DNA of 16,682 bases from the IMG/VR virus record IMGVR_UViG_2671180643_000014. One strand, 5' to 3'. This stretch comes from a virus (taxonomy: Duplodnaviria; Heunggongvirae; Uroviricota; Caudoviricetes). A model generated the notes under the pieces. That model ran no database searches. It was given only the letters and a program-made list of their open reading frames with translations, and was not told where the DNA came from. Below, piece by piece: positions 1,596 to 6,040 of this stretch; the stretch's first letter is position 1, and every line of letters begins with the position of its first letter. The position numbers and the translations under genes are program-made.

Positions 1596-1784
1596 GTGTT
1601 AAGCACTGATCGGTTTATACGTGAAAAAGAATGCGAAAAACTAACCGGCCTTAGCCGTACGTGTCGCTACCGCCTGGAAAAGGCCGGACAATTCCCATCA
1701 CGTCGTAAACTTGGCGGTCGTTCCGTTGGCTGGTCTTTATCCGAGGTTCTGGCCTGGAAGGATAGCTGCAAGGCAGTTCATTAA
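1596..1784 (+). CDS. alpA: AlpA-family transcriptional regulator / excisionase-like HTH protein
   Basis: Translation RFIREKECEKLTGLSRTCRYRLEKAGQFPSRRKLGGRSVGWSLSEVLAWK matches the AlpA/MerR-like HTH pattern. GTG start at 1596 preceded by aaagggggg Shine-Dalgarno; the track ORF starts further upstream at TTG 1515. Confidence 0.8.
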   Translation: MLSTDRFIREKECEKLTGLSRTCRYRLEKAGQFPSRRKLGGRSVGWSLSEVLAWKDSCKAVH

Positions 1785-1920
1785 TCACGCTGGCGGCACG
1801 CAGCCGCCACACATCAATCATCTGAACACAGAGCTATAACCATGAAGATTGAATATACGCCAGAACGTGGGCGGGGATTCGTTCGCCCTGGTGAAACTGA
1901 AAAACAACAAAATTGGGGTT

Positions 1921-1950
1921 TTTCAGACATAAAAAAAGCGGCCCCGAAAT
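1921..1950 (-). terminator. Candidate intrinsic terminator for the leftward (minus-strand) operon
   Basis: Plus strand reads aaaaaaaGCGGCcccgaaatggaGCCGCc. On the minus strand this is a GC stem followed by a 7-U run, about 100 nt downstream of the minus-strand ORF ending at 2054. Confidence 0.4.
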
Positions 1951-2053
1951 GGAGCCGCCTTTCTGAACAGATAACCCGCTGCGCCGTTTGTGTGTGTGAT
2001 CCCAAACATAAGAACGGCAATGATAGTCGCTATCAGGCTGGTGGGCAATGCTA

Positions 2054-2227
2054 TCAGTCTGGTTCAGTTCGTTGCCATACCTGCAATGAGCGCTTTTCCC
2101 TGTACTCTTTAAGGAATTGCTCAAGGGCAAAAGCACATGGCGCGAATCTTTCTGATTCATGCTCTATCTTTCTGCGCCGTCTTTTCCGTGCCGGTGATAA
2201 TGTTTTGGTCAATTCTTTATCGGTCAT
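2054..2227 (-). CDS. Hypothetical small basic protein (57 aa), second gene of leftward operon
   Basis: Minus-strand ORF MTDKELTKTLSPARKRRRRKIEHE... with AGGA about 8 nt upstream of the second ATG. Lies between the RHH gene and the minus-strand terminator. No recognisable domain. Confidence 0.3.
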   Translation of the reverse strand: MTDKELTKTLSPARKRRRRKIEHESERFAPCAFALEQFLKEYREKRSLQVWQRTEPD

Positions 2228-2284
2228 TGTGTTGTCCTGCATAGCAATGCGCCGTAATACCTTACACCACGGCGCTGATGGTGA

Positions 2285-2464
2285 TTACTCTGGTTCTTTG
2301 GCCTTGCGCCGCTGGCGATATTCAACTTCTCGTTTTAATGCTGCAGTAACAAATTGCCCCGTACTTTCGCCAGGCATTTTTACCGCCTCAACATTGTTCA
2401 TAACTTCATGCGGAACCCTTGCCGCAACGGTTTGTGATTTTGCGTTTACTGCTTTTGTCGCCAT
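2285..2464 (-). CDS. Ribbon-helix-helix (Arc/CopG-like) DNA-binding protein, candidate island repressor
   Basis: 59-aa minus-strand ORF absent from the ORF track: MATKAVNAKSQTVAARVPHEVMNNVEAVKMPGESTGQFVTAALKREVEYRQRRKAKEPE. Strand-helix-helix pattern, GAGGGG Shine-Dalgarno 9 nt upstream, divergent from the operator-rich promoter region. Confidence 0.5.
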   Translation of the reverse strand: MATKAVNAKSQTVAARVPHEVMNNVEAVKMPGESTGQFVTAALKREVEYRQRRKAKEPE

Positions 2465-2514
2465 GTGGTGTACCCCTCATAAAAAACAAATGCAGTATGC
2501 AGGAAAAAAAATAA

Positions 2515-2566
2515 GTGTTCAACACTTGACGTGTTTAACACCTGGGTTTAAATTGGTGTTCAACAC
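2515..2566. promoter_or_regulatory. Divergent promoter region with three palindromic operators GTGTT(C/T)AACAC
   Basis: Operators at 2515-2525, 2531-2541 and 2556-2566 bracket a rightward -35 TTGACG (2526-2531) and -10 TAAATT (2549-2554). A leftward -35/-10 (TTGAAC / CATACT) is readable on the minus strand. Confidence 0.6.
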
Positions 2567-2663
2567 CTTGTTGGCGCAAGGTGCAGAAACGACGAAACCC
2601 GGCAGTGCGCTAACACTAACCGGGCTTCTAACCACCAACGATAGCGAAAGTATCGAGGTAGCT

Positions 2664-2867
2664 ATGAGAAATCATACCACACACCCGCAAGGGCGGGACT
2701 CGCACAACCTGAATAAATACATCTGGCGTTTTATCGCCCTGAGCACGGCACAACCGCGCGTGATTACCATTGAGGCCACCAGCGAACAGGAAGCACGCCA
2801 GCAATCCCCGGCTGGCTGCGTGATGGTATTCGCTGCCCGTATTCGTCAGGGGTCACATCATGCGTAA
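2664..2867 (+). CDS. Icd/Ash-like small protein (P4-type immunity-region protein), paralog 1
   Basis: 67 aa, GAGG Shine-Dalgarno 6 nt upstream. C-terminal block YIWRF...EATSEQEARQQ...FAARIRQG is shared with the gene at 3154-3327. The family assignment is from memory of P4-like prophage annotations. Confidence 0.5.
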   Translation: MRNHTTHPQGRDSHNLNKYIWRFIALSTAQPRVITIEATSEQEARQQSPAGCVMVFAARIRQGSHHA

Positions 2868-2989
2868 AAACCGCTTGCAAAAAATTATCACGGGGCTGTA
2901 TGCTTCCCCCGTCGCCCACATGGCGACCGGGTTTGACAGCCTGAATACATCTGGCGGACAGCCGCCCACATCCGATAAGCGGTTTTTTT
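2866..2989 (+). ncRNA. Candidate structured RNA or complex terminator between the two Icd-like genes
   Basis: An 11-bp perfect long-range stem (aaaaaccgctt at 2866-2876 pairs with aagcggttttt at 2977-2987) encloses three local hairpins and is followed by a 7-T run. Pairings were read by eye, not computed. Confidence 0.3.
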
Positions 2990-3103
2990 GTGTCCGTAAA
3001 CCTACCCATACCCGCATTATGGCGGGGCGTAACGGGGGAGCCTTTGTGCTCGCTGGTTTCCAGATGACCAGTCTGTCAACCCTGTTACGTCTCGCCACCA
3101 TGT

Positions 3104-3134
3104 TTGACAGCGTAGTAGCGAGACTCCTTAAAAT
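3104..3134 (+). promoter_or_regulatory. Candidate sigma70-type promoter for Icd-like paralog 2 and the downstream cassette
   Basis: -35 TTGACA at 3104-3109 and -10 TAAAAT at 3129-3134 (19-bp spacer, on the long side). GGGAG Shine-Dalgarno and ATG 3154 follow. Confidence 0.35.
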
Positions 3135-3153
3135 TCATCTGGGAGCCTTTCAC

Positions 3154-3327
3154 ATGGCTGTATCCGCACGCCCTTATTTTGTCTGGCGCTTTATGCAGTG
3201 CCAGGAAAAACAAACCTCACTCTTTACCGTCACGGCAGCAACAGAACGCGAAGCCCGCGCCCAGCTGCCGCACGCACATCTGATTTTTGTCGCCCGTATT
3301 CGTCAGGGGGAAACCTATGCACAATAA
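3154..3327 (+). CDS. Icd/Ash-like small protein, paralog 2
   Basis: 57 aa; YFVWRF...TAATEREARAQ...FVARIRQG aligns with paralog 1. Start chosen at the ATG with an upstream GGGAG; the in-frame ORF extends upstream to 2860, so the start is uncertain. Confidence 0.5.
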   Translation: MAVSARPYFVWRFMQCQEKQTSLFTVTAATEREARAQLPHAHLIFVARIRQGETYAQ

Positions 3328-3538
3328 AACCACGCCGGACGCAGCCGCCGCCGCGCTCACTACGCTGATGCATGCGCTTATTGATATTGAATGCACAGCA
3401 GGGCTTGCACAAAAGGAAGAACGGGAAGAATACACATTGTTCGCCCTGGAATGTATTCGATACATCGCAACGCGGTCGCTGAATGACGCTAAAAATATTC
3501 TTGTTGCTGATTGTGAAAATGGGGGTGGTTATGCGTGA
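3317..3538 (+). CDS. Hypothetical small protein (73 aa)
   Basis: AGGGGG Shine-Dalgarno 6 nt before ATG 3317. Overlaps the stop of the upstream gene. No recognisable motif. Confidence 0.5.
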   Translation: MHNKTTPDAAAAALTTLMHALIDIECTAGLAQKEEREEYTLFALECIRYIATRSLNDAKNILVADCENGGGYA

Positions 3539-3995: not shown

Positions 3996-4295
3996 ATGAA
4001 ACTTAAATATTCTGGCTTAACTGCCAGTGGCAACACTCACCCTAAATTTACGCGCGGCGATATTTACCGCGACCAGTACGGCGGCACCGTAACGATTAAA
4101 GGTGTAGAAGAGCGACGCATTACCTACCGCCGTGAAGGCTACGAATATGACTGCGTGATGCCTGTTTATCAGTTCCGGCGTGATTTTTCTCTGGTACAGG
4201 CAGCGCCCCGCAGTAAACCAACCAGCAGGGAGAAAGCACGCGCCAATATTCAGGAAATAAAAAAGATGCTTAACGTATTCAGGGGTAAGAAATGA
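3996..4295 (+). CDS. Hypothetical protein (99 aa) immediately upstream of primase
   Basis: GGAG upstream of ATG 3996; stop overlaps the primase start (ATGA). No recognisable domain. Confidence 0.55.
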   Translation: MKLKYSGLTASGNTHPKFTRGDIYRDQYGGTVTIKGVEERRITYRREGYEYDCVMPVYQFRRDFSLVQAAPRSKPTSREKARANIQEIKKMLNVFRGKK

Positions 4296-6040
4296 AACTG
4301 GCACCGAACGTAAAAAAACAACCACGCGGAATAAAACACAAAGACACAGAGGTAATTATTTTCGCGGGTAGTGATGCGTGGTCACATGCAAAACAGTGGC
4401 AGGAGCAGGACGGCCCCGCATCCGGCGATAATGTGCCGCCTGTGTGGCTTGGGCCAAATCAGCTTGCCGAACTTGATGCGCTGAAAATTGTTCCGGATGG
4501 GAAAAAGCGCGTAAGGCTGTACCAGGCCGGAGAACTTGATTTAGTGGAGACCAAAAAGATTGGTCAGAAGCTGGCGGCGGCAGATATTCAGGACGCAAAT
4601 TTTTACCCCGAAGGAATGCACGTCCAGAAGTGTGAAAACTGGCGGCGCTATCTGAATGCTGAGCGTGAAAATATTGCCGCAGGGCTTACCATGCCGGAGC
4701 AGAAAAATACGCAACTGGCACAAATGGCAGACAGTGAGCGCGCGCAGCTGCTTGCCGAGCGCTTTGATGGCGTTTGTGTGCATCCGGAAAGTGAAATCGT
4801 TCACGTATGGCGCGGCGGGGTATGGTGTCCGGTCAGCACAATGGAACTTAGCCGCGAAATGGTGGCGATCTATTCAGAGCACAGGGCCACTTTCAGCAAG
4901 CGCGTAATCAATAACGCCGTGGAAGCGTTAAAAGTTATTGCCGAACCAATGGGCGAGCCGTCCGGCGATTTGCTGCCGTTCGCCAATGGTGCGCTTGACC
5001 TGAAAACGGGGGGATTTTCCCCGCACACGCCGGAGAACTGGATCACCACGCACAACGGCATTGAGTACACGCCACCAGCACCAGGGGAGAACATCCGCGA
5101 TAACGCGCCAAACTTTCATAAATGGCTTGAGCACGCAGCCGGAAAAGACCCGCGCAAGATGATGCGTATATGTGCCGCGCTGTACATGATTATGGCGAAC
5201 CGGTACGACTGGCAGATGTTTATTGAGGCCACCGGAGACGGCGGGAGCGGTAAAAGTACATTCACGCACATAGCCAGCCTTCTGGCAGGGAAACAGAACA
5301 CGGTAAGCGCTGAAATGACGTCGCTTGATGATGCTGGTGGACGTGCGCAGGTTGTCGGGAGTCGTCTTATCGTCCTGGCTGACCAGCCGAAATATACAGG
5401 CGAAGGAACGGGTATCAAGAAAATCACGGGCGGTGACCCCGTGGAAATTAACCCGAAATACGAAAAGCGTTTCACGGCTGTAATCAGGGCGGTGGTGCTG
5501 GCGACCAACAATAACCCGATGATATTCACCGAACGGGCCGGAGGTGTGGCACGTCGTCGCGTGATTTTCCGTTTCGACAATATCGTCAGTGAGGCCGAAA
5601 AAGACAGGGAGCTACCGGAAAAGATTGCGGCTGAAATCCCTGTCATTATCCGCCGATTGCTGGCGAACTTTACCGACCCTGAGAAGGCACGGGCTTTACT
5701 ACTGGAACAGCGTGACGGTGATGAAGCACTGGCAATAAAGCAACAGACGGATCCGGTTATTGAGTTTTGCCAGTTCCTGAATTTTCTGGAGGAAGCGCGC
5801 GGCCTGATGATGGGTGGCGGTGGTGATTCAGTGAAGTATACGACCAGGAACAGCCTTTACCGCGTCTATCTGGCGTTTATGGCATACGCAGGCAGGAGCA
5901 AACCGCTAAACGTGGCTGAGTTCAGCAAGGCCATGAAGCCAGCGGCGAAAGTTTACGGGCATGAATATATTACGCGAAAAGTTAAGGGAGTAACGCAGAC
6001 CAACGCAATTACAACAGACGATTGCGACGCGTTTTTATAA
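4292..6040 (+). CDS. Replication primase-helicase, P4-alpha/D5-type with SF3 NTPase domain
   Basis: 582 aa. Walker A GDGGSGKST in a D5_N/primase-C-like context; the largest island ORF, directly followed by the iteron array. Confidence 0.85.
   Translation: MKLAPNVKKQPRGIKHKDTEVIIFAGSDAWSHAKQWQEQDGPASGDNVPPVWLGPNQLAELDALKIVPDGKKRVRLYQAGELDLVETKKIGQKLAAADIQDANFYPEGMHVQKCENWRRYLNAERENIAAGLTMPEQKNTQLAQMADSERAQLLAERFDGVCVHPESEIVHVWRGGVWCPVSTMELSREMVAIYSEHRATFSKRVINNAVEALKVIAEPMGEPSGDLLPFANGALDLKTGGFSPHTPENWITTHNGIEYTPPAPGENIRDNAPNFHKWLEHAAGKDPRKMMRICAALYMIMANRYDWQMFIEATGDGGSGKSTFTHIASLLAGKQNTVSAEMTSLDDAGGRAQVVGSRLIVLADQPKYTGEGTGIKKITGGDPVEINPKYEKRFTAVIRAVVLATNNNPMIFTERAGGVARRRVIFRFDNIVSEAEKDRELPEKIAAEIPVIIRRLLANFTDPEKARALLLEQRDGDEALAIKQQTDPVIEFCQFLNFLEEARGLMMGGGGDSVKYTTRNSLYRVYLAFMAYAGRSKPLNVAEFSKAMKPAAKVYGHEYITRKVKGVTQTNAITTDDCDAFL

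What the first reader, a model, noticed from the sequence alone, without database searches (positions are those of the whole stretch)
2054..2663. Untracked leftward repressor operon and a triple-operator divergent promoter inside a spurious 341-aa ORF
The ORF track shows one implausible low-complexity ORF at 1842-2867. The region instead reads as a divergent control switch: three copies of the palindrome GTGTT(C/T)AACAC overlap a rightward -35/-10 and a leftward promoter. The leftward unit encodes a 59-aa ribbon-helix-helix protein (below the track cutoff) with a good ribosome-binding site, a 57-aa basic protein, and a minus-strand terminator at 1921-1950. This could be the island's master repressor, or an antitoxin/toxin-like pair.
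Basis: partly seen in the sequence, partly recalled or inferred. Interest (0 to 1): 0.55.

Follow-up and report, generated by a model that had tools for sequence, protein, structure and literature searches.

The report
Repressor switch inside a satellite's leader
This is the control switch of a phage-satellite island: a small DNA-binding repressor gene, its three binding sites on back-to-back promoters, and an antisense RNA, all sitting inside a long gene on the opposite strand that appears to be real rather than spurious; the repressor is a candidate for the one that has been missing for Gram-negative satellites.

Summary
Three exact GTGTTYAACAC palindromes (2515-2525, 2531-2541, 2556-2566) bracket a rightward promoter and overlap a leftward one. 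The 59-aa ORF (2285-2464, minus) is a real ribbon-helix-helix (RHH) protein of the YlcI/YnfO family. The 57-aa ORF (2054-2227, minus) is a real gene. A strong minus-strand terminator lies at 1930-1959.

In about 30 related loci from many Enterobacterales, the promoter geometry is fixed, and the operator core changes together with the protein's beta-strand residues (about 14 specificity classes). The RHH protein is therefore very probably the operator-binding repressor. The same module is present in the prototype island EcCICFT073, for which the literature says no repressor is known.

- A toxin/antitoxin pair is unlikely, because the 57-aa gene occurs only in E. coli/Shigella islands.
- The 341-aa plus-strand ORF is probably not spurious. 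Its frame stays open across the AT-rich control region in 28 of 30 loci. It starts right after alpA. RHH synonymous sites avoid creating stops in it. It matches the eta-like translated leader of satellite P4.

I also found a structured, SymR-like antisense RNA (about 2591-2666, minus) over the start of the first rightward gene, and a C4/CI-type immunity RNA cassette downstream.

The element is a new variant of known kinds, of moderate to high interest.

The parts
1596..1784 (+). alpA (AlpA/Vis-family regulator). [quoted passage not shown]
   Evidence: Pfam Phage_AlpA, E 1.5e-16. RefSeq annotates the homologous position as a helix-turn-helix regulator.
1842..2867 (+). ORF-A, an eta-like long leader ORF of 341 aa. 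It runs antisense to both minus-strand genes, crosses the operators and promoters, and ends in frame in the Icd-like domain.
   Evidence: ORF listed. Frame open in 28 of 30 loci across the 169-nt control region. The open stretch reaches from alpA to the Icd-like stop in most loci. 0 of 151 stop-creating dicodons in RHH genes against 27.9 expected. P4 eta paradigm: PMC10111431.
1930..1959 (-). Intrinsic terminator of the leftward operon: stem 1937-1959 and a U7 tract at 1930-1936. On the plus strand it reads as a weak hairpin inside ORF-A.
   Evidence: RNA fold dG -18.3 kcal/mol, z -3.0. Other alleles carry different terminators at the equivalent position.
2054..2227 (-). S57, a 57-aa basic two-helix protein and the second gene of the leftward operon. 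An upstream ATG at 2242 is not conserved.
   Evidence: phrog_21027, E 1.6e-15. 36 homologue clusters, all E. coli/Shigella. Always 57 nt after the repressor gene. dN/dS 0.14-0.4. Identical to CFT073 WP_000130015.1.
2249..2275 (-). Conserved hairpin in the fixed 57-nt spacer between the RHH gene and S57.
   Evidence: Fold dG -18.4. The sequence is conserved between alleles that carry different repressors.
2285..2464 (-). RHH repressor gene (59 aa, YlcI/YnfO family).
2473..2478 (-). Shine-Dalgarno GAGGGG of the RHH gene.
   Evidence: Read from the sequence; 8 nt before the ATG at 2464.
2494..2522 (-). Leftward promoter PL: -35 TTGAAC (2517-2522, inside O1), 17 nt, -10 CATACT (2494-2499).
   Evidence: Sequence. 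The -10 is positionally conserved, 35-36 nt from the ATG in 22 of 26 loci.
2515..2525 (.). Operator O1. It abuts the -35 of PR and contains the -35 of PL.
   Evidence: Exact palindrome match; repeat family D1.
2526..2554 (+). Rightward promoter PR (TTGACG, 17 nt, TAAATT), internal to ORF-A. It is the analogue of P4 PLE.
   Evidence: Promoter scan. TTGAC with 17-18 nt to a TAnnnT hexamer is conserved at the same position in 23 of 26 loci.
2531..2541 (.). Operator O2, in the PR spacer.
   Evidence: A 12-mer at the same position in relatives changes together with the RHH beta-strand.
2556..2566 (.). Operator O3, over the predicted PR start site.
2591..2666 (-). SymR-like cis-antisense small RNA: two hairpins, complementary to the SD and start codon of the short Icd-like ORF.
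   Evidence: Rfam RF01809, 33.3 bits, below the gathering score of 61, full-length match. Fold z -5.6. 24 conserved pairs, 16 of them compensatory, 96.5% paired, 0 of 500 shuffles as good. 68 G-U cells against 1 A-C cell, which assigns the RNA to the minus strand.
2671..2679 (-). Extended -10 promoter TGgTATGAT of the antisense RNA.
   Evidence: Sequence. A TAnnnT hexamer lies 4-10 nt upstream of the start-codon complement in all the loci inspected by eye.
2664..2867 (+). Short Icd-like ORF (67 aa). It is the only part of ORF-A that can be translated from PR transcripts.
   Evidence: NCBIfam phage_ICD_like, E 1.4e-19.
2860..3327 (+). ORF-B. Its start overlaps the stop of ORF-A. It contains the c4-a1b1 target (2898-2947), a terminator-like hairpin with U7 (about 2959-2990) and the C4/CI-type RNA (3015-3102), and it ends in a second Icd-like domain.
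   Evidence: Rfam C4, 72.6 bits against a gathering score of 45; c4-a1b1, 46.8 against 46.7. Sequence. NCBIfam Icd-like, E 4.2e-14.

Best explanation
The window is a capsid-forming phage satellite (a PICI, phage-inducible chromosomal island) integrated between roxA and phoQ. Positions 1842-3330 are its immunity and control zone.

Core claim. The 59-aa minus-strand gene encodes a ribbon-helix-helix (RHH) repressor of the YlcI/YnfO family. Its dimers bind the three GTGTTYAACAC operators.
- O2 and O3 occlude the spacer and start site of the rightward promoter PR. This shuts off PR-driven expression of the Icd-like cell-division inhibitor and the downstream replication operon.
- O1 contains the -35 of the repressor's own promoter PL, which gives autoregulation.

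The leftward transcript also carries a 57-aa basic protein, an accessory specific to E. coli islands and of unknown role. It ends at a strong terminator.

Second layer. A SymR-like antisense RNA, started from an extended -10 just inside the Icd-like gene, pairs with the ribosome-binding site and start codon of that gene. PR transcripts that escape repression therefore stay untranslated.

Third layer, in this allele only. A C4/CI-type RNA with its target and a terminator lies downstream.

Inferred by analogy with satellite P4. The 341-aa plus-strand ORF is a translated leader like P4 eta. When the helper phage switches on alpA, transcription from the alpA promoter runs through this ORF. The ORF's start codon lies upstream of PR, so ribosomes cover the whole control region. 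That would bypass the operators, the antisense RNA and the terminators. This transcription also runs convergently and antisense through the repressor operon, which should lower repressor synthesis and lock the switch on.

Shown computationally: the genes, fold, operators, promoter geometry, protein-operator co-variation, RNA structure and strand, and open-frame conservation.

Inferred: actual binding, the direction of regulation, read-through from alpA, and the role of translation.
For: Element identity. int, alpA, primase, capsid, portal and terminase genes, with phoQ at the end of the window. It occupies the same site and carries the same module as EcCICFT073.

RHH identity.
- NCBIfam YlcI/YnfO, E 2.1e-16.
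- In hhalign against Arc, the beta-strand and helix A align in the correct register, though weakly.
- The AF2 model has two helices and an invariant G-E-S turn.

Operators. Three exact copies, 0 of 200 shuffles.

Conserved geometry. PR's TTGAC lies 61-66 nt from the RHH ATG, the spacer is 17-18 nt, and PL's -10 lies 35-36 nt from the ATG.

Co-variation. About 14 classes in which beta-strand residues 11-15 and the operator core change together. For example:
- QTVAA with GTGTTAAACAC
- KKLEA or RKLEA with GTGTCAGCCAC, in both Xenorhabdus and Pectobacterium
- QSLKS or QALKA with GTGTGGCCCAC, in Dryocola, Yokenella and E. coli CFT073
- QKLQA with GTGGACTCCAC
- QKMSA with CTGGCACCCA
The Mantel correlation is r = 0.37, reached by 6 of 5000 permutations.

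Antisense RNA..

Long ORF.. P4 eta mechanism and the PICI 'Bro zone': PMC10111431.

Published context. [quoted passage not shown]
Against: - No experiment shows binding, transcripts or translation here.
- The promoter hexamers alone are not above chance in the scan: 3 found against 1.7 expected.
- The loci are phylogenetically related, so the co-variation and open-frame statistics overstate independence.
- If PR must also supply the C4 immunity RNA, as PLE does in P4, tight repression by the RHH protein would be counter-productive. Repression may therefore be partial or conditional.
- Over-expressed AlpA alone induces EcCICFT073 (PMC6092414). The RHH protein is therefore not a barrier that needs its own inducer.
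- The ORF-A start in this window has only a weak SD.
Confidence: 0.65

Rival explanations
1. The two minus-strand genes form a type II toxin-antitoxin module. The RHH protein is the antitoxin that autoregulates through the palindromes, and the 57-aa basic protein is the toxin. The module stabilises the island.
Against: S57 matches no Pfam, NCBIfam or structural family. It occurs only in E. coli/Shigella. In the loci from other genera no conserved second gene follows the RHH gene, and several have a terminator-like hairpin directly after it. The RHH protein has no C-terminal extension for binding a toxin. In one allele S57 sits behind an unrelated repressor (L038). The operators cover the divergent PR as well as the module's own promoter.
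Confidence: 0.05
2. The RHH protein binds the operators, but it is not the maintenance repressor. It acts as a transient, Cro-like or Mnt-like modulator that tunes PR and PL during induction, for example by limiting Icd-like toxicity. Quiescence would then be kept by the lack of AlpA and by the antisense and C4 RNAs.
For: AlpA over-expression alone induces EcCICFT073, and alpA mutants are not induced (PMC6092414). RNA-based immunity is present here. P4 keeps its equivalent promoter constitutively active (PMC10111431).
Against: The CFT073 and RM6927 alleles lack the C4 cassette but keep the RHH gene and its operators. The operators sit in classic occlusion positions over PR. Many exclusive specificity classes suggest an immunity function.
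Confidence: 0.17
3. The palindromes are bound by another factor, AlpA or a host or helper protein. The YlcI/YnfO protein would then have an unrelated role, for example in packaging, since its K-12 namesakes lie near terminase genes.
For: There is no direct binding evidence. The family is annotated only as 'unknown function'. From memory, the K-12 members lie in prophage late regions.
Against: The operator core co-varies with the RHH beta-strand and not with alpA. The window and CFT073 have nearly identical AlpA proteins but different operators. The gene is always exactly adjacent to the operators at a fixed distance.
Confidence: 0.05
4. The 341-aa ORF is a chance by-product of antisense coding. 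Only the minus-strand genes and the short Icd-like ORF would be translated.
For: Antisense frames with coincident third positions are often open. The ORF-A product is of low complexity and has no domain hits. In this window the SD is weak. PGAP treats the N-terminal part as a pseudogene.
Against: Antisense coding cannot explain an open frame across the non-coding, 38-50% GC control region in 28 of 30 loci. It also cannot explain intergenic length changes that come only in multiples of three, 0 of 151 stop-creating dicodons against 27.9 expected, or starts with an SD directly after alpA. The P4 eta precedent applies as well.
Confidence: 0.08

Closest known systems
Phage P22 immI region (the Mnt and Arc ribbon-helix-helix repressors controlling the divergent Pant/Pmnt promoters, plus the sar antisense RNA)
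   Same: A small RHH repressor is transcribed divergently from the operon it represses. Symmetric operators overlap back-to-back promoters. A cis-antisense RNA acts on the translation start of a downstream gene. (P22 facts are from general knowledge.)
   Different: There is no detectable sequence homology: hhalign to Arc gives E 0.008 and probability 5%, and to Mnt E 0.5. There are three separate 11-13 bp sites instead of one 17-21 bp operator. The repressor gene lies antisense inside a long translated ORF. The regulated operon is a satellite replication operon, not an antirepressor gene.
Satellite P4 immunity region (vis, eta/kil, PLE/PLL, CI RNA, seqA)
   Same: An AlpA/Vis gene is followed by a long leader ORF. 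A promoter lies internal to that ORF. A C4/CI-type RNA and its seqA-like target sit inside the coding frame. An Icd/Kil-like short product is made. Translation from the upstream promoter is proposed to override termination (PMC10111431; Rfam hits).
   Different: P4's internal promoter is described as constitutive and has no protein repressor. Here it is flanked by three operators for an RHH repressor whose gene is embedded antisense in the leader ORF, and a SymR-like antisense RNA is added. The Icd-like and RHH proteins give no tblastn hit to P4 in the phage collection.
SymR/SymE (Rfam RF01809), a cis-antisense RNA over the start of an SOS-induced toxin gene
   Same: Both are about 75 nt with two hairpins. 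In both, the promoter lies just inside the target ORF, and the RNA is complementary to the SD and start codon. The loop motif GUGUUnGCGCAC is similar. The match covers the full length of the model.
   Different: The score of 33 bits is below the gathering threshold of 61. The target is an Icd-like gene of a satellite, not symE.
Stl/Rpr master repressors of Gram-positive PICIs (SaPIs)
   Same: A repressor gene is transcribed divergently from the replication and packaging operon of a phage-inducible island (PMC6092414).
   Different: Stl proteins are large helix-turn-helix repressors that are inactivated when they bind a helper-phage protein. Here the repressor is a 59-aa RHH protein. Induction goes through AlpA and probably bypasses the repressor rather than inactivating it.
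YlcI/YnfO (DUF3950) prophage proteins of E. coli K-12
   Same: Same NCBIfam family. The 65-aa PICI alleles carry Pfam DUF3950.
   Different: The K-12 members have no assigned function, and I did not examine their context. The window protein itself does not reach Pfam DUF3950.

Membership tests
YlcI/YnfO family (NCBIfam NF041551) | Score above the curated cutoff of the family HMM | tested here: met
   59.7 bits against a cutoff of 30, residues 9-50 matching profile positions 1-42 of 42. RefSeq gives the identical protein WP_000201461.1 this name.
Pfam DUF3950 (PF13132) | Pfam HMM hit | tested here: not met
   No hit at E <= 1 for the window protein or for the 30 aligned homologues. The 65-aa alleles in L033-L036 do carry the domain.
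Ribbon-helix-helix (Arc/MetJ/CopG) DNA-binding superfamily | A beta-strand, helix A, G-x-S/T turn and helix B within about 45 residues | tested here: met
Ribbon-helix-helix (Arc/MetJ/CopG) DNA-binding superfamily | Significant sequence-profile match to a known RHH family | tested here: not met
   No Pfam RHH family matches. There are only faint hits to CB_ParB_C and PSK_trans_fac in a few members. A PDB profile search found nothing.
Ribbon-helix-helix (Arc/MetJ/CopG) DNA-binding superfamily | A dimer whose beta-sheet reads repeated or symmetric operators | tested here: inconclusive
   Indirect only. Strand residues 11-15, especially the alternating positions 12 and 14, co-vary with the operator core across about 14 classes. 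No binding assay or complex model was possible.
Type II toxin-antitoxin module | An adjacent toxin gene from a recognisable family, conserved as the partner of the antitoxin | tested here: not met
   S57 has no family other than a PHROG of unknown function. It is absent outside E. coli/Shigella, while the RHH gene persists there.
P4-type satellite immunity ('Bro zone': eta-like ORF, internal promoter, CI/C4 RNA, seqA) | A C4/CI RNA and its target site downstream of the internal promoter | tested here: met
   Rfam C4, 72.6 bits (gathering score 45), at 3015-3102. c4-a1b1, 46.8 bits (gathering score 46.7), at 2898-2947.
P4-type satellite immunity ('Bro zone': eta-like ORF, internal promoter, CI/C4 RNA, seqA) | A long ORF that starts next to the alpA/vis homologue and spans the internal promoter | tested here: met
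   ORF-A at 1842-2867 starts 58 nt after alpA and spans PR. The arrangement is conserved in relatives.
P4-type satellite immunity ('Bro zone': eta-like ORF, internal promoter, CI/C4 RNA, seqA) | Translation of the long ORF from the upstream promoter suppresses termination | not testable with these tools
   This needs transcript and translation assays. Here there is only conservation of the open frame.
SymR antisense RNA (Rfam RF01809) | Score at or above the gathering threshold | tested here: not met
   33.3 bits against 61. It therefore works like SymR but is not filed as a member.
Capsid-forming PICI (cf-PICI) of Enterobacterales | int, alpA and primase genes plus the island's own capsid, portal, protease, connector and terminase genes, with no tail or lysis genes, at a PICI attachment site | tested here: met
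   ORF map. Annotation of a homologue with 96% nucleotide identity over the 94% of the window that aligns. Same roxA/phoQ site as EcCICFT073. Definition taken from 10.1101/2022.09.08.507074. Helper-dependent mobilisation was not tested.

The most novel reading that the evidence does not exclude
Both strands of 2054-2464 encode translated proteins under selection. A repressor operon sits antisense inside a translated leader ORF. AlpA-driven transcription and translation of that leader then does three things at once. It bypasses the repressor's operators. It strips off the antisense RNA and the terminators. It silences the convergent repressor operon by collision or duplex RNA. This would be a self-locking convergent-transcription toggle. 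It would explain how Gram-negative phage satellites stay quiet without an inducer-sensitive repressor. The exchangeable repressor/operator cassettes (at least 14 specificities) would define satellite immunity groups.
Probability: 0.35. Interest if true: 0.78.

Novelty: new variant of a known kind. Interest (0 to 1): 0.62.

Why it matters
Gram-negative phage-inducible islands are found in a large share of E. coli genomes. This exact repressor/operator allele is in 487 of 5,426 complete genomes, and the same module, with a different repressor allele, is in the prototype EcCICFT073. These islands move virulence and defence genes between bacteria.

Their founding paper states that a global repressor is not known and that only the activator AlpA has been found (PMC6092414). 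In the held library I found no paper that assigns a function to this gene family.

A defined 59-aa protein, three operators and about 14 natural specificity variants make that question directly testable. They would also supply a set of small orthogonal repressor/operator pairs.

The conserved protein coding on both strands, and the layering of a protein repressor, a cis-antisense RNA and a C4-type RNA on one leader, would extend the P4 immunity paradigm.

Tried and rejected
- Pfam on all small ORFs gave nothing for the RHH protein, S57 or ORF-A. CFT073's ORF-A has only a faint Bro-N remnant (E 0.069).
- PDB sequence and profile searches of the RHH protein gave only chance hits to DNA polymerase beta.
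- hhalign against Arc and Mnt was weak.
- The S57 model (two helices, pLDDT 70) found no Foldseek match, so its role is still unknown. The resemblance of its SPARKRRRRK stretch to arginine-rich RNA-binding motifs comes from memory only.
- tblastn of the RHH and Icd-like proteins against 50,697 phage records hit only one 16.5-kb 'induced prophage', which is probably another cf-PICI. The module therefore belongs to satellites, not phages.
- The operator-like GTGTTAAGCAC at the alpA start (1596-1606) was rejected as chance. About 0.5 one-mismatch hits are expected per window, and the same alpA start occurs in CFT073, whose repressor has a different specificity.
- My first codon test for the antisense frame used the wrong codon set and is void. 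It was corrected.
- Two automatic start-codon pickers mis-assigned several Icd-like starts. I replaced them with a fixed-window frame test.
- The P4 paper by Forti et al. (1999) could not be retrieved. The mechanism is cited through PMC10111431 and PMC4825925.
Full report
CONTEXT

The window carries a tyrosine integrase (1-1230), alpA (1596-1784; Pfam Phage_AlpA, E 1.5e-16), a primase (4292-6040), and capsid, protease, portal, connector, HNH and terminase genes. It ends in phoQ. It is therefore a capsid-forming phage-inducible chromosomal island (cf-PICI, as defined in 10.1101/2022.09.08.507074). It sits at the same roxA/phoQ site as the prototype Gram-negative PICI EcCICFT073.

THE OBSERVATION

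Operators and promoters:
- Three exact GTGTTYAACAC palindromes lie at 2515-2525, 2531-2541 and 2556-2566. None of 200 shuffles gave as many hits, and the copies extend to a 13-nt unit.
- The rightward promoter PR is TTGACG (2526-2531), 17 nt, TAAATT (2549-2554). O1 abuts its -35, O2 fills its spacer and O3 covers its start site.
- On the other strand, the leftward promoter PL is TTGAAC (inside O1), 17 nt, CATACT. An SD (GAGGGG) and the ATG at 2464 follow it.

Genes of the leftward unit:
- The 59-aa ORF (2285-2464, minus) scores 59.7 bits on NCBIfam YlcI/YnfO, cutoff 30. It is identical to RefSeq WP_000201461.1.
- The 57-aa ORF (2054-2227, minus) matches phrog_21027.
- The minus-strand terminator is a 9-bp GC-rich stem at 1937-1959 followed by U7 (dG -18.3).

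IS THE 59-AA PROTEIN A RIBBON-HELIX-HELIX (RHH) REPRESSOR OF THESE SITES?

Sequence databases do not say so. Pfam and PDB sequence searches found nothing significant.

The structural evidence does support it:
- 74 homologues across the Enterobacterales show an invariant K9-S10 ... R16 ... G32-E33-S34 pattern. This is the strand, helix A, G-x-S turn, helix B layout of RHH proteins.
- The AlphaFold model (pLDDT 78) has helices at 19-28 and 35-56. Its N-terminus is of low confidence, as expected for a strand that forms only in the dimer.

The strongest evidence is comparative. I fetched about 45 loci. In those I could analyse:
- PR's TTGAC lies 61-66 nt from the repressor ATG in 23 of 26 loci, with 17-18 nt to a TAnnnT hexamer.
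- PL's (T/C)ATACT lies 35-36 nt from the ATG in 22 of 26 loci.
- The repeated 11-13-mers at the O2 and O3 positions, and usually a further copy just after PL's -10, differ between loci in step with beta-strand residues 11-15.

Examples of that co-variation:
- QTVAA, QTLAA or QTIAA with GTGTT(A/G)AACAC
- KKLEA or RKLEA with GTGTCAGCCAC (Xenorhabdus and Pectobacterium)
- QSLKS or QALKA with GTGTGGCCCAC (Dryocola, Yokenella, E. coli CFT073)
- QKLQA, QKLQT or QKVQA with GTGGA(C/T/G)TCCAC
- QKMSA with CTGGCACCCA
- QMTTV with GTGAAATACAC
- AKKNI with TGTGCGCACA

There are about 14 classes in all. The Mantel correlation is r = 0.37, reached by 6 of 5000 permutations. The variable positions alternate with hydrophobic ones, as expected for the DNA-facing side of an RHH strand.

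AlpA cannot explain this pattern. The window and CFT073 have nearly the same AlpA but different operators.

I conclude, with high but not experimental confidence, that this protein binds these operators. Given where they lie, it should repress PR and autoregulate PL.

THE SECOND GENE (S57)

S57 is a real gene. It has 36 homologue clusters with in-frame indels, and dN/dS is 0.14-0.4 at dS of about 1.

It is confined to E. coli and Shigella islands. There it always follows the repressor gene after exactly 57 nt, a spacer that contains a conserved hairpin (2249-2275). This holds behind different RHH alleles and even behind an unrelated RHH-like protein.

The loci from other genera have no conserved second gene after the RHH gene, and several have a terminator-like hairpin directly after it. 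S57 has no recognisable family or fold match. A toxin-antitoxin reading is therefore unlikely, and its role is unknown.

THE 341-AA ORF IS PROBABLY NOT SPURIOUS

The 341-aa plus-strand ORF (ORF-A, 1842-2867) shows four signs of selection:
- In every locus, the frame antisense to the RHH gene in which third codon positions coincide has no stop. The other two antisense frames have 0-6.
- That frame continues without a stop through the 169-nt, 38-50% GC control region in 28 of 30 loci. The mean is 0.3 stops, against 4.4 and 5.2 in the other frames. In the 20 loci where the Icd-like start was picked correctly and lies in this frame, the intergenic length varies (136 to 199 nt) but is always 1 mod 3.
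- In most loci the open stretch reaches from the alpA stop to the stop of the Icd-like gene. Its first ATG lies about 10-120 nt after alpA, usually behind GGAGG- or GAGG-type SDs.
- Within 26 distinct RHH genes, none of 151 dicodon sites that could create a stop in this antisense frame does so. From local synonymous codon usage, 27.9 would be expected.

This matches what is described for P4 and for the 'Bro zone' of Gram-negative PICIs (PMC10111431). [quoted passage not shown] Transcripts from that promoter terminate early through the CI/seqA RNAs. Translation from the upstream promoter overrides the termination.

The window has the corresponding features:
- PR lies inside ORF-A.
- ORF-A's stop overlaps the start of ORF-B (ATG 2860, TAA 2865-2867).
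- ORF-B contains a c4-a1b1 target (2898-2947), a hairpin plus U7 (about 2959-2990) and a C4/CI RNA (3015-3102, 72.6 bits). It ends in a second Icd-like domain.

That paper does not describe a repressor gene on the opposite strand, its operators, or the antisense RNA described next.

AN ANTISENSE RNA

Rfam gave a full-length but sub-threshold SymR match at 2591-2663 on the minus strand (33 bits, gathering score 61). The minus strand folds into two hairpins (z -5.6).

Across 25 loci the structure has 24 pairs, and 16 of them show compensatory changes. It is 96.5% paired, and no shuffle or slid control came near that. There are 68 G-U cells against one A-C cell, so the RNA is made from the minus strand.

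An extended -10 (TGgTATGAT, reverse complement of 2671-2679) would start the RNA at the complement of the Icd-like start codon. Hairpin 1 carries the anti-SD. As with SymR over symE, it should block translation of the short Icd-like ORF on PR transcripts.

MODEL

Quiescent state (inferred). The RHH protein occupies O1-O3. PR is low and PL is self-limited. Any PR transcript is kept untranslated by the antisense RNA. In this allele it is also terminated through the C4 system.

[quoted passage not shown] Transcription from the alpA promoter enters ORF-A. Ribosomes then cover the operators, the antisense target and the terminators. The same transcription runs convergently through the repressor operon, which should lower repressor output.

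A caveat: if PR must also supply C4 RNA, repression cannot be complete.

KNOWN OR NEW

The parts are of known kinds: an RHH repressor at divergent promoters (as in P22 Mnt/Arc), a P4-type leader with a C4 RNA, and a SymR-like antisense RNA. The gene is already annotated, without a function.

I found no paper assigning it a role. The PICI founding paper states that a global repressor in Gram-negative elements is unclear.

The new elements are the combination itself, the embedding of the repressor operon antisense within a conserved translated leader, and the many exchangeable specificity cassettes. I rate this a new variant of a known kind, with interest 0.62.

Noticed in passing
window 2860-3327: ORF-B overlaps the stop of ORF-A (ATG 2860, TAA 2865-2867). 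It contains Rfam c4-a1b1 (2898-2947), an isrK-like hairpin plus U7 (about 2959-2990) and a C4/CI antisense RNA (3015-3102), and it ends in a second Icd-like domain. This is a P4/P1-type RNA immunity cassette. It is absent from the CFT073 and RM6927 relatives, so it is an optional add-on.
   Followed up: partly
window 2591-2679 (-): A structured, SymR-like cis-antisense RNA with its own extended -10 promoter covers the SD and start codon of the Icd-like gene. It is not a curated Rfam family: the only match is sub-threshold, to RF01809.
   Followed up: yes
window 2249-2275 (-): A stable hairpin (dG -18.4) lies in the invariant 57-nt spacer between the repressor gene and S57. It is conserved between alleles with different repressors, and L042 appears to keep the pairing through changes on both arms. 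It could be a processing or attenuation site.
   Followed up: partly
L038 2264-2443 and upstream; L044 2138-2443: In one E. coli island, the same slot holds an unrelated 59-aa RHH-like protein (..PPFQFRLDPDLREKMEKAQ..) with its own palindromes (TGTGTAATG / CATTACA). In another, the RHH protein carries a 42-aa insertion (101 aa). Repressor and operators appear to be exchanged as a cassette.
   Followed up: partly
window 1596-1606: GTGTTAAGCAC, at the GTG start codon of alpA, differs from the operator by one base. It is probably chance, because the same alpA start occurs in CFT073, whose repressor recognises a different operator.
   Followed up: yes
window 2029-2042 and 2050-2063: The direct repeat GCTATCAG(G/T)CTGGT straddles the S57 stop codon. 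I have no explanation for it.
   Followed up: no
L040 (E. coli, OU349846.1), rightward ORF of 567 aa: In this island a single open frame runs from alpA through the antisense S57 and RHH genes, the control region and two or three successive Icd-like domains, including a stretch that looks like a C4 region. It is an extreme case of the translated leader.
   Followed up: no
L002 (Edwardsiella hoshinae NBRC 105699) 4001-4183: The RHH protein is 100% identical over residues 1-57 to the E. coli allele, with only synonymous DNA changes and the same operators. This fits the reported spread of identical cf-PICIs across genera.
   Followed up: partly
L046 (CFT073) 9768-10242, plus strand: The N-terminal part of the ORF-A homologue in EcCICFT073 keeps a faint Bro-N remnant (Pfam E 0.069). 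In the window this segment is deleted. This supports a 'Bro-zone' origin for the leader ORF.
   Followed up: partly
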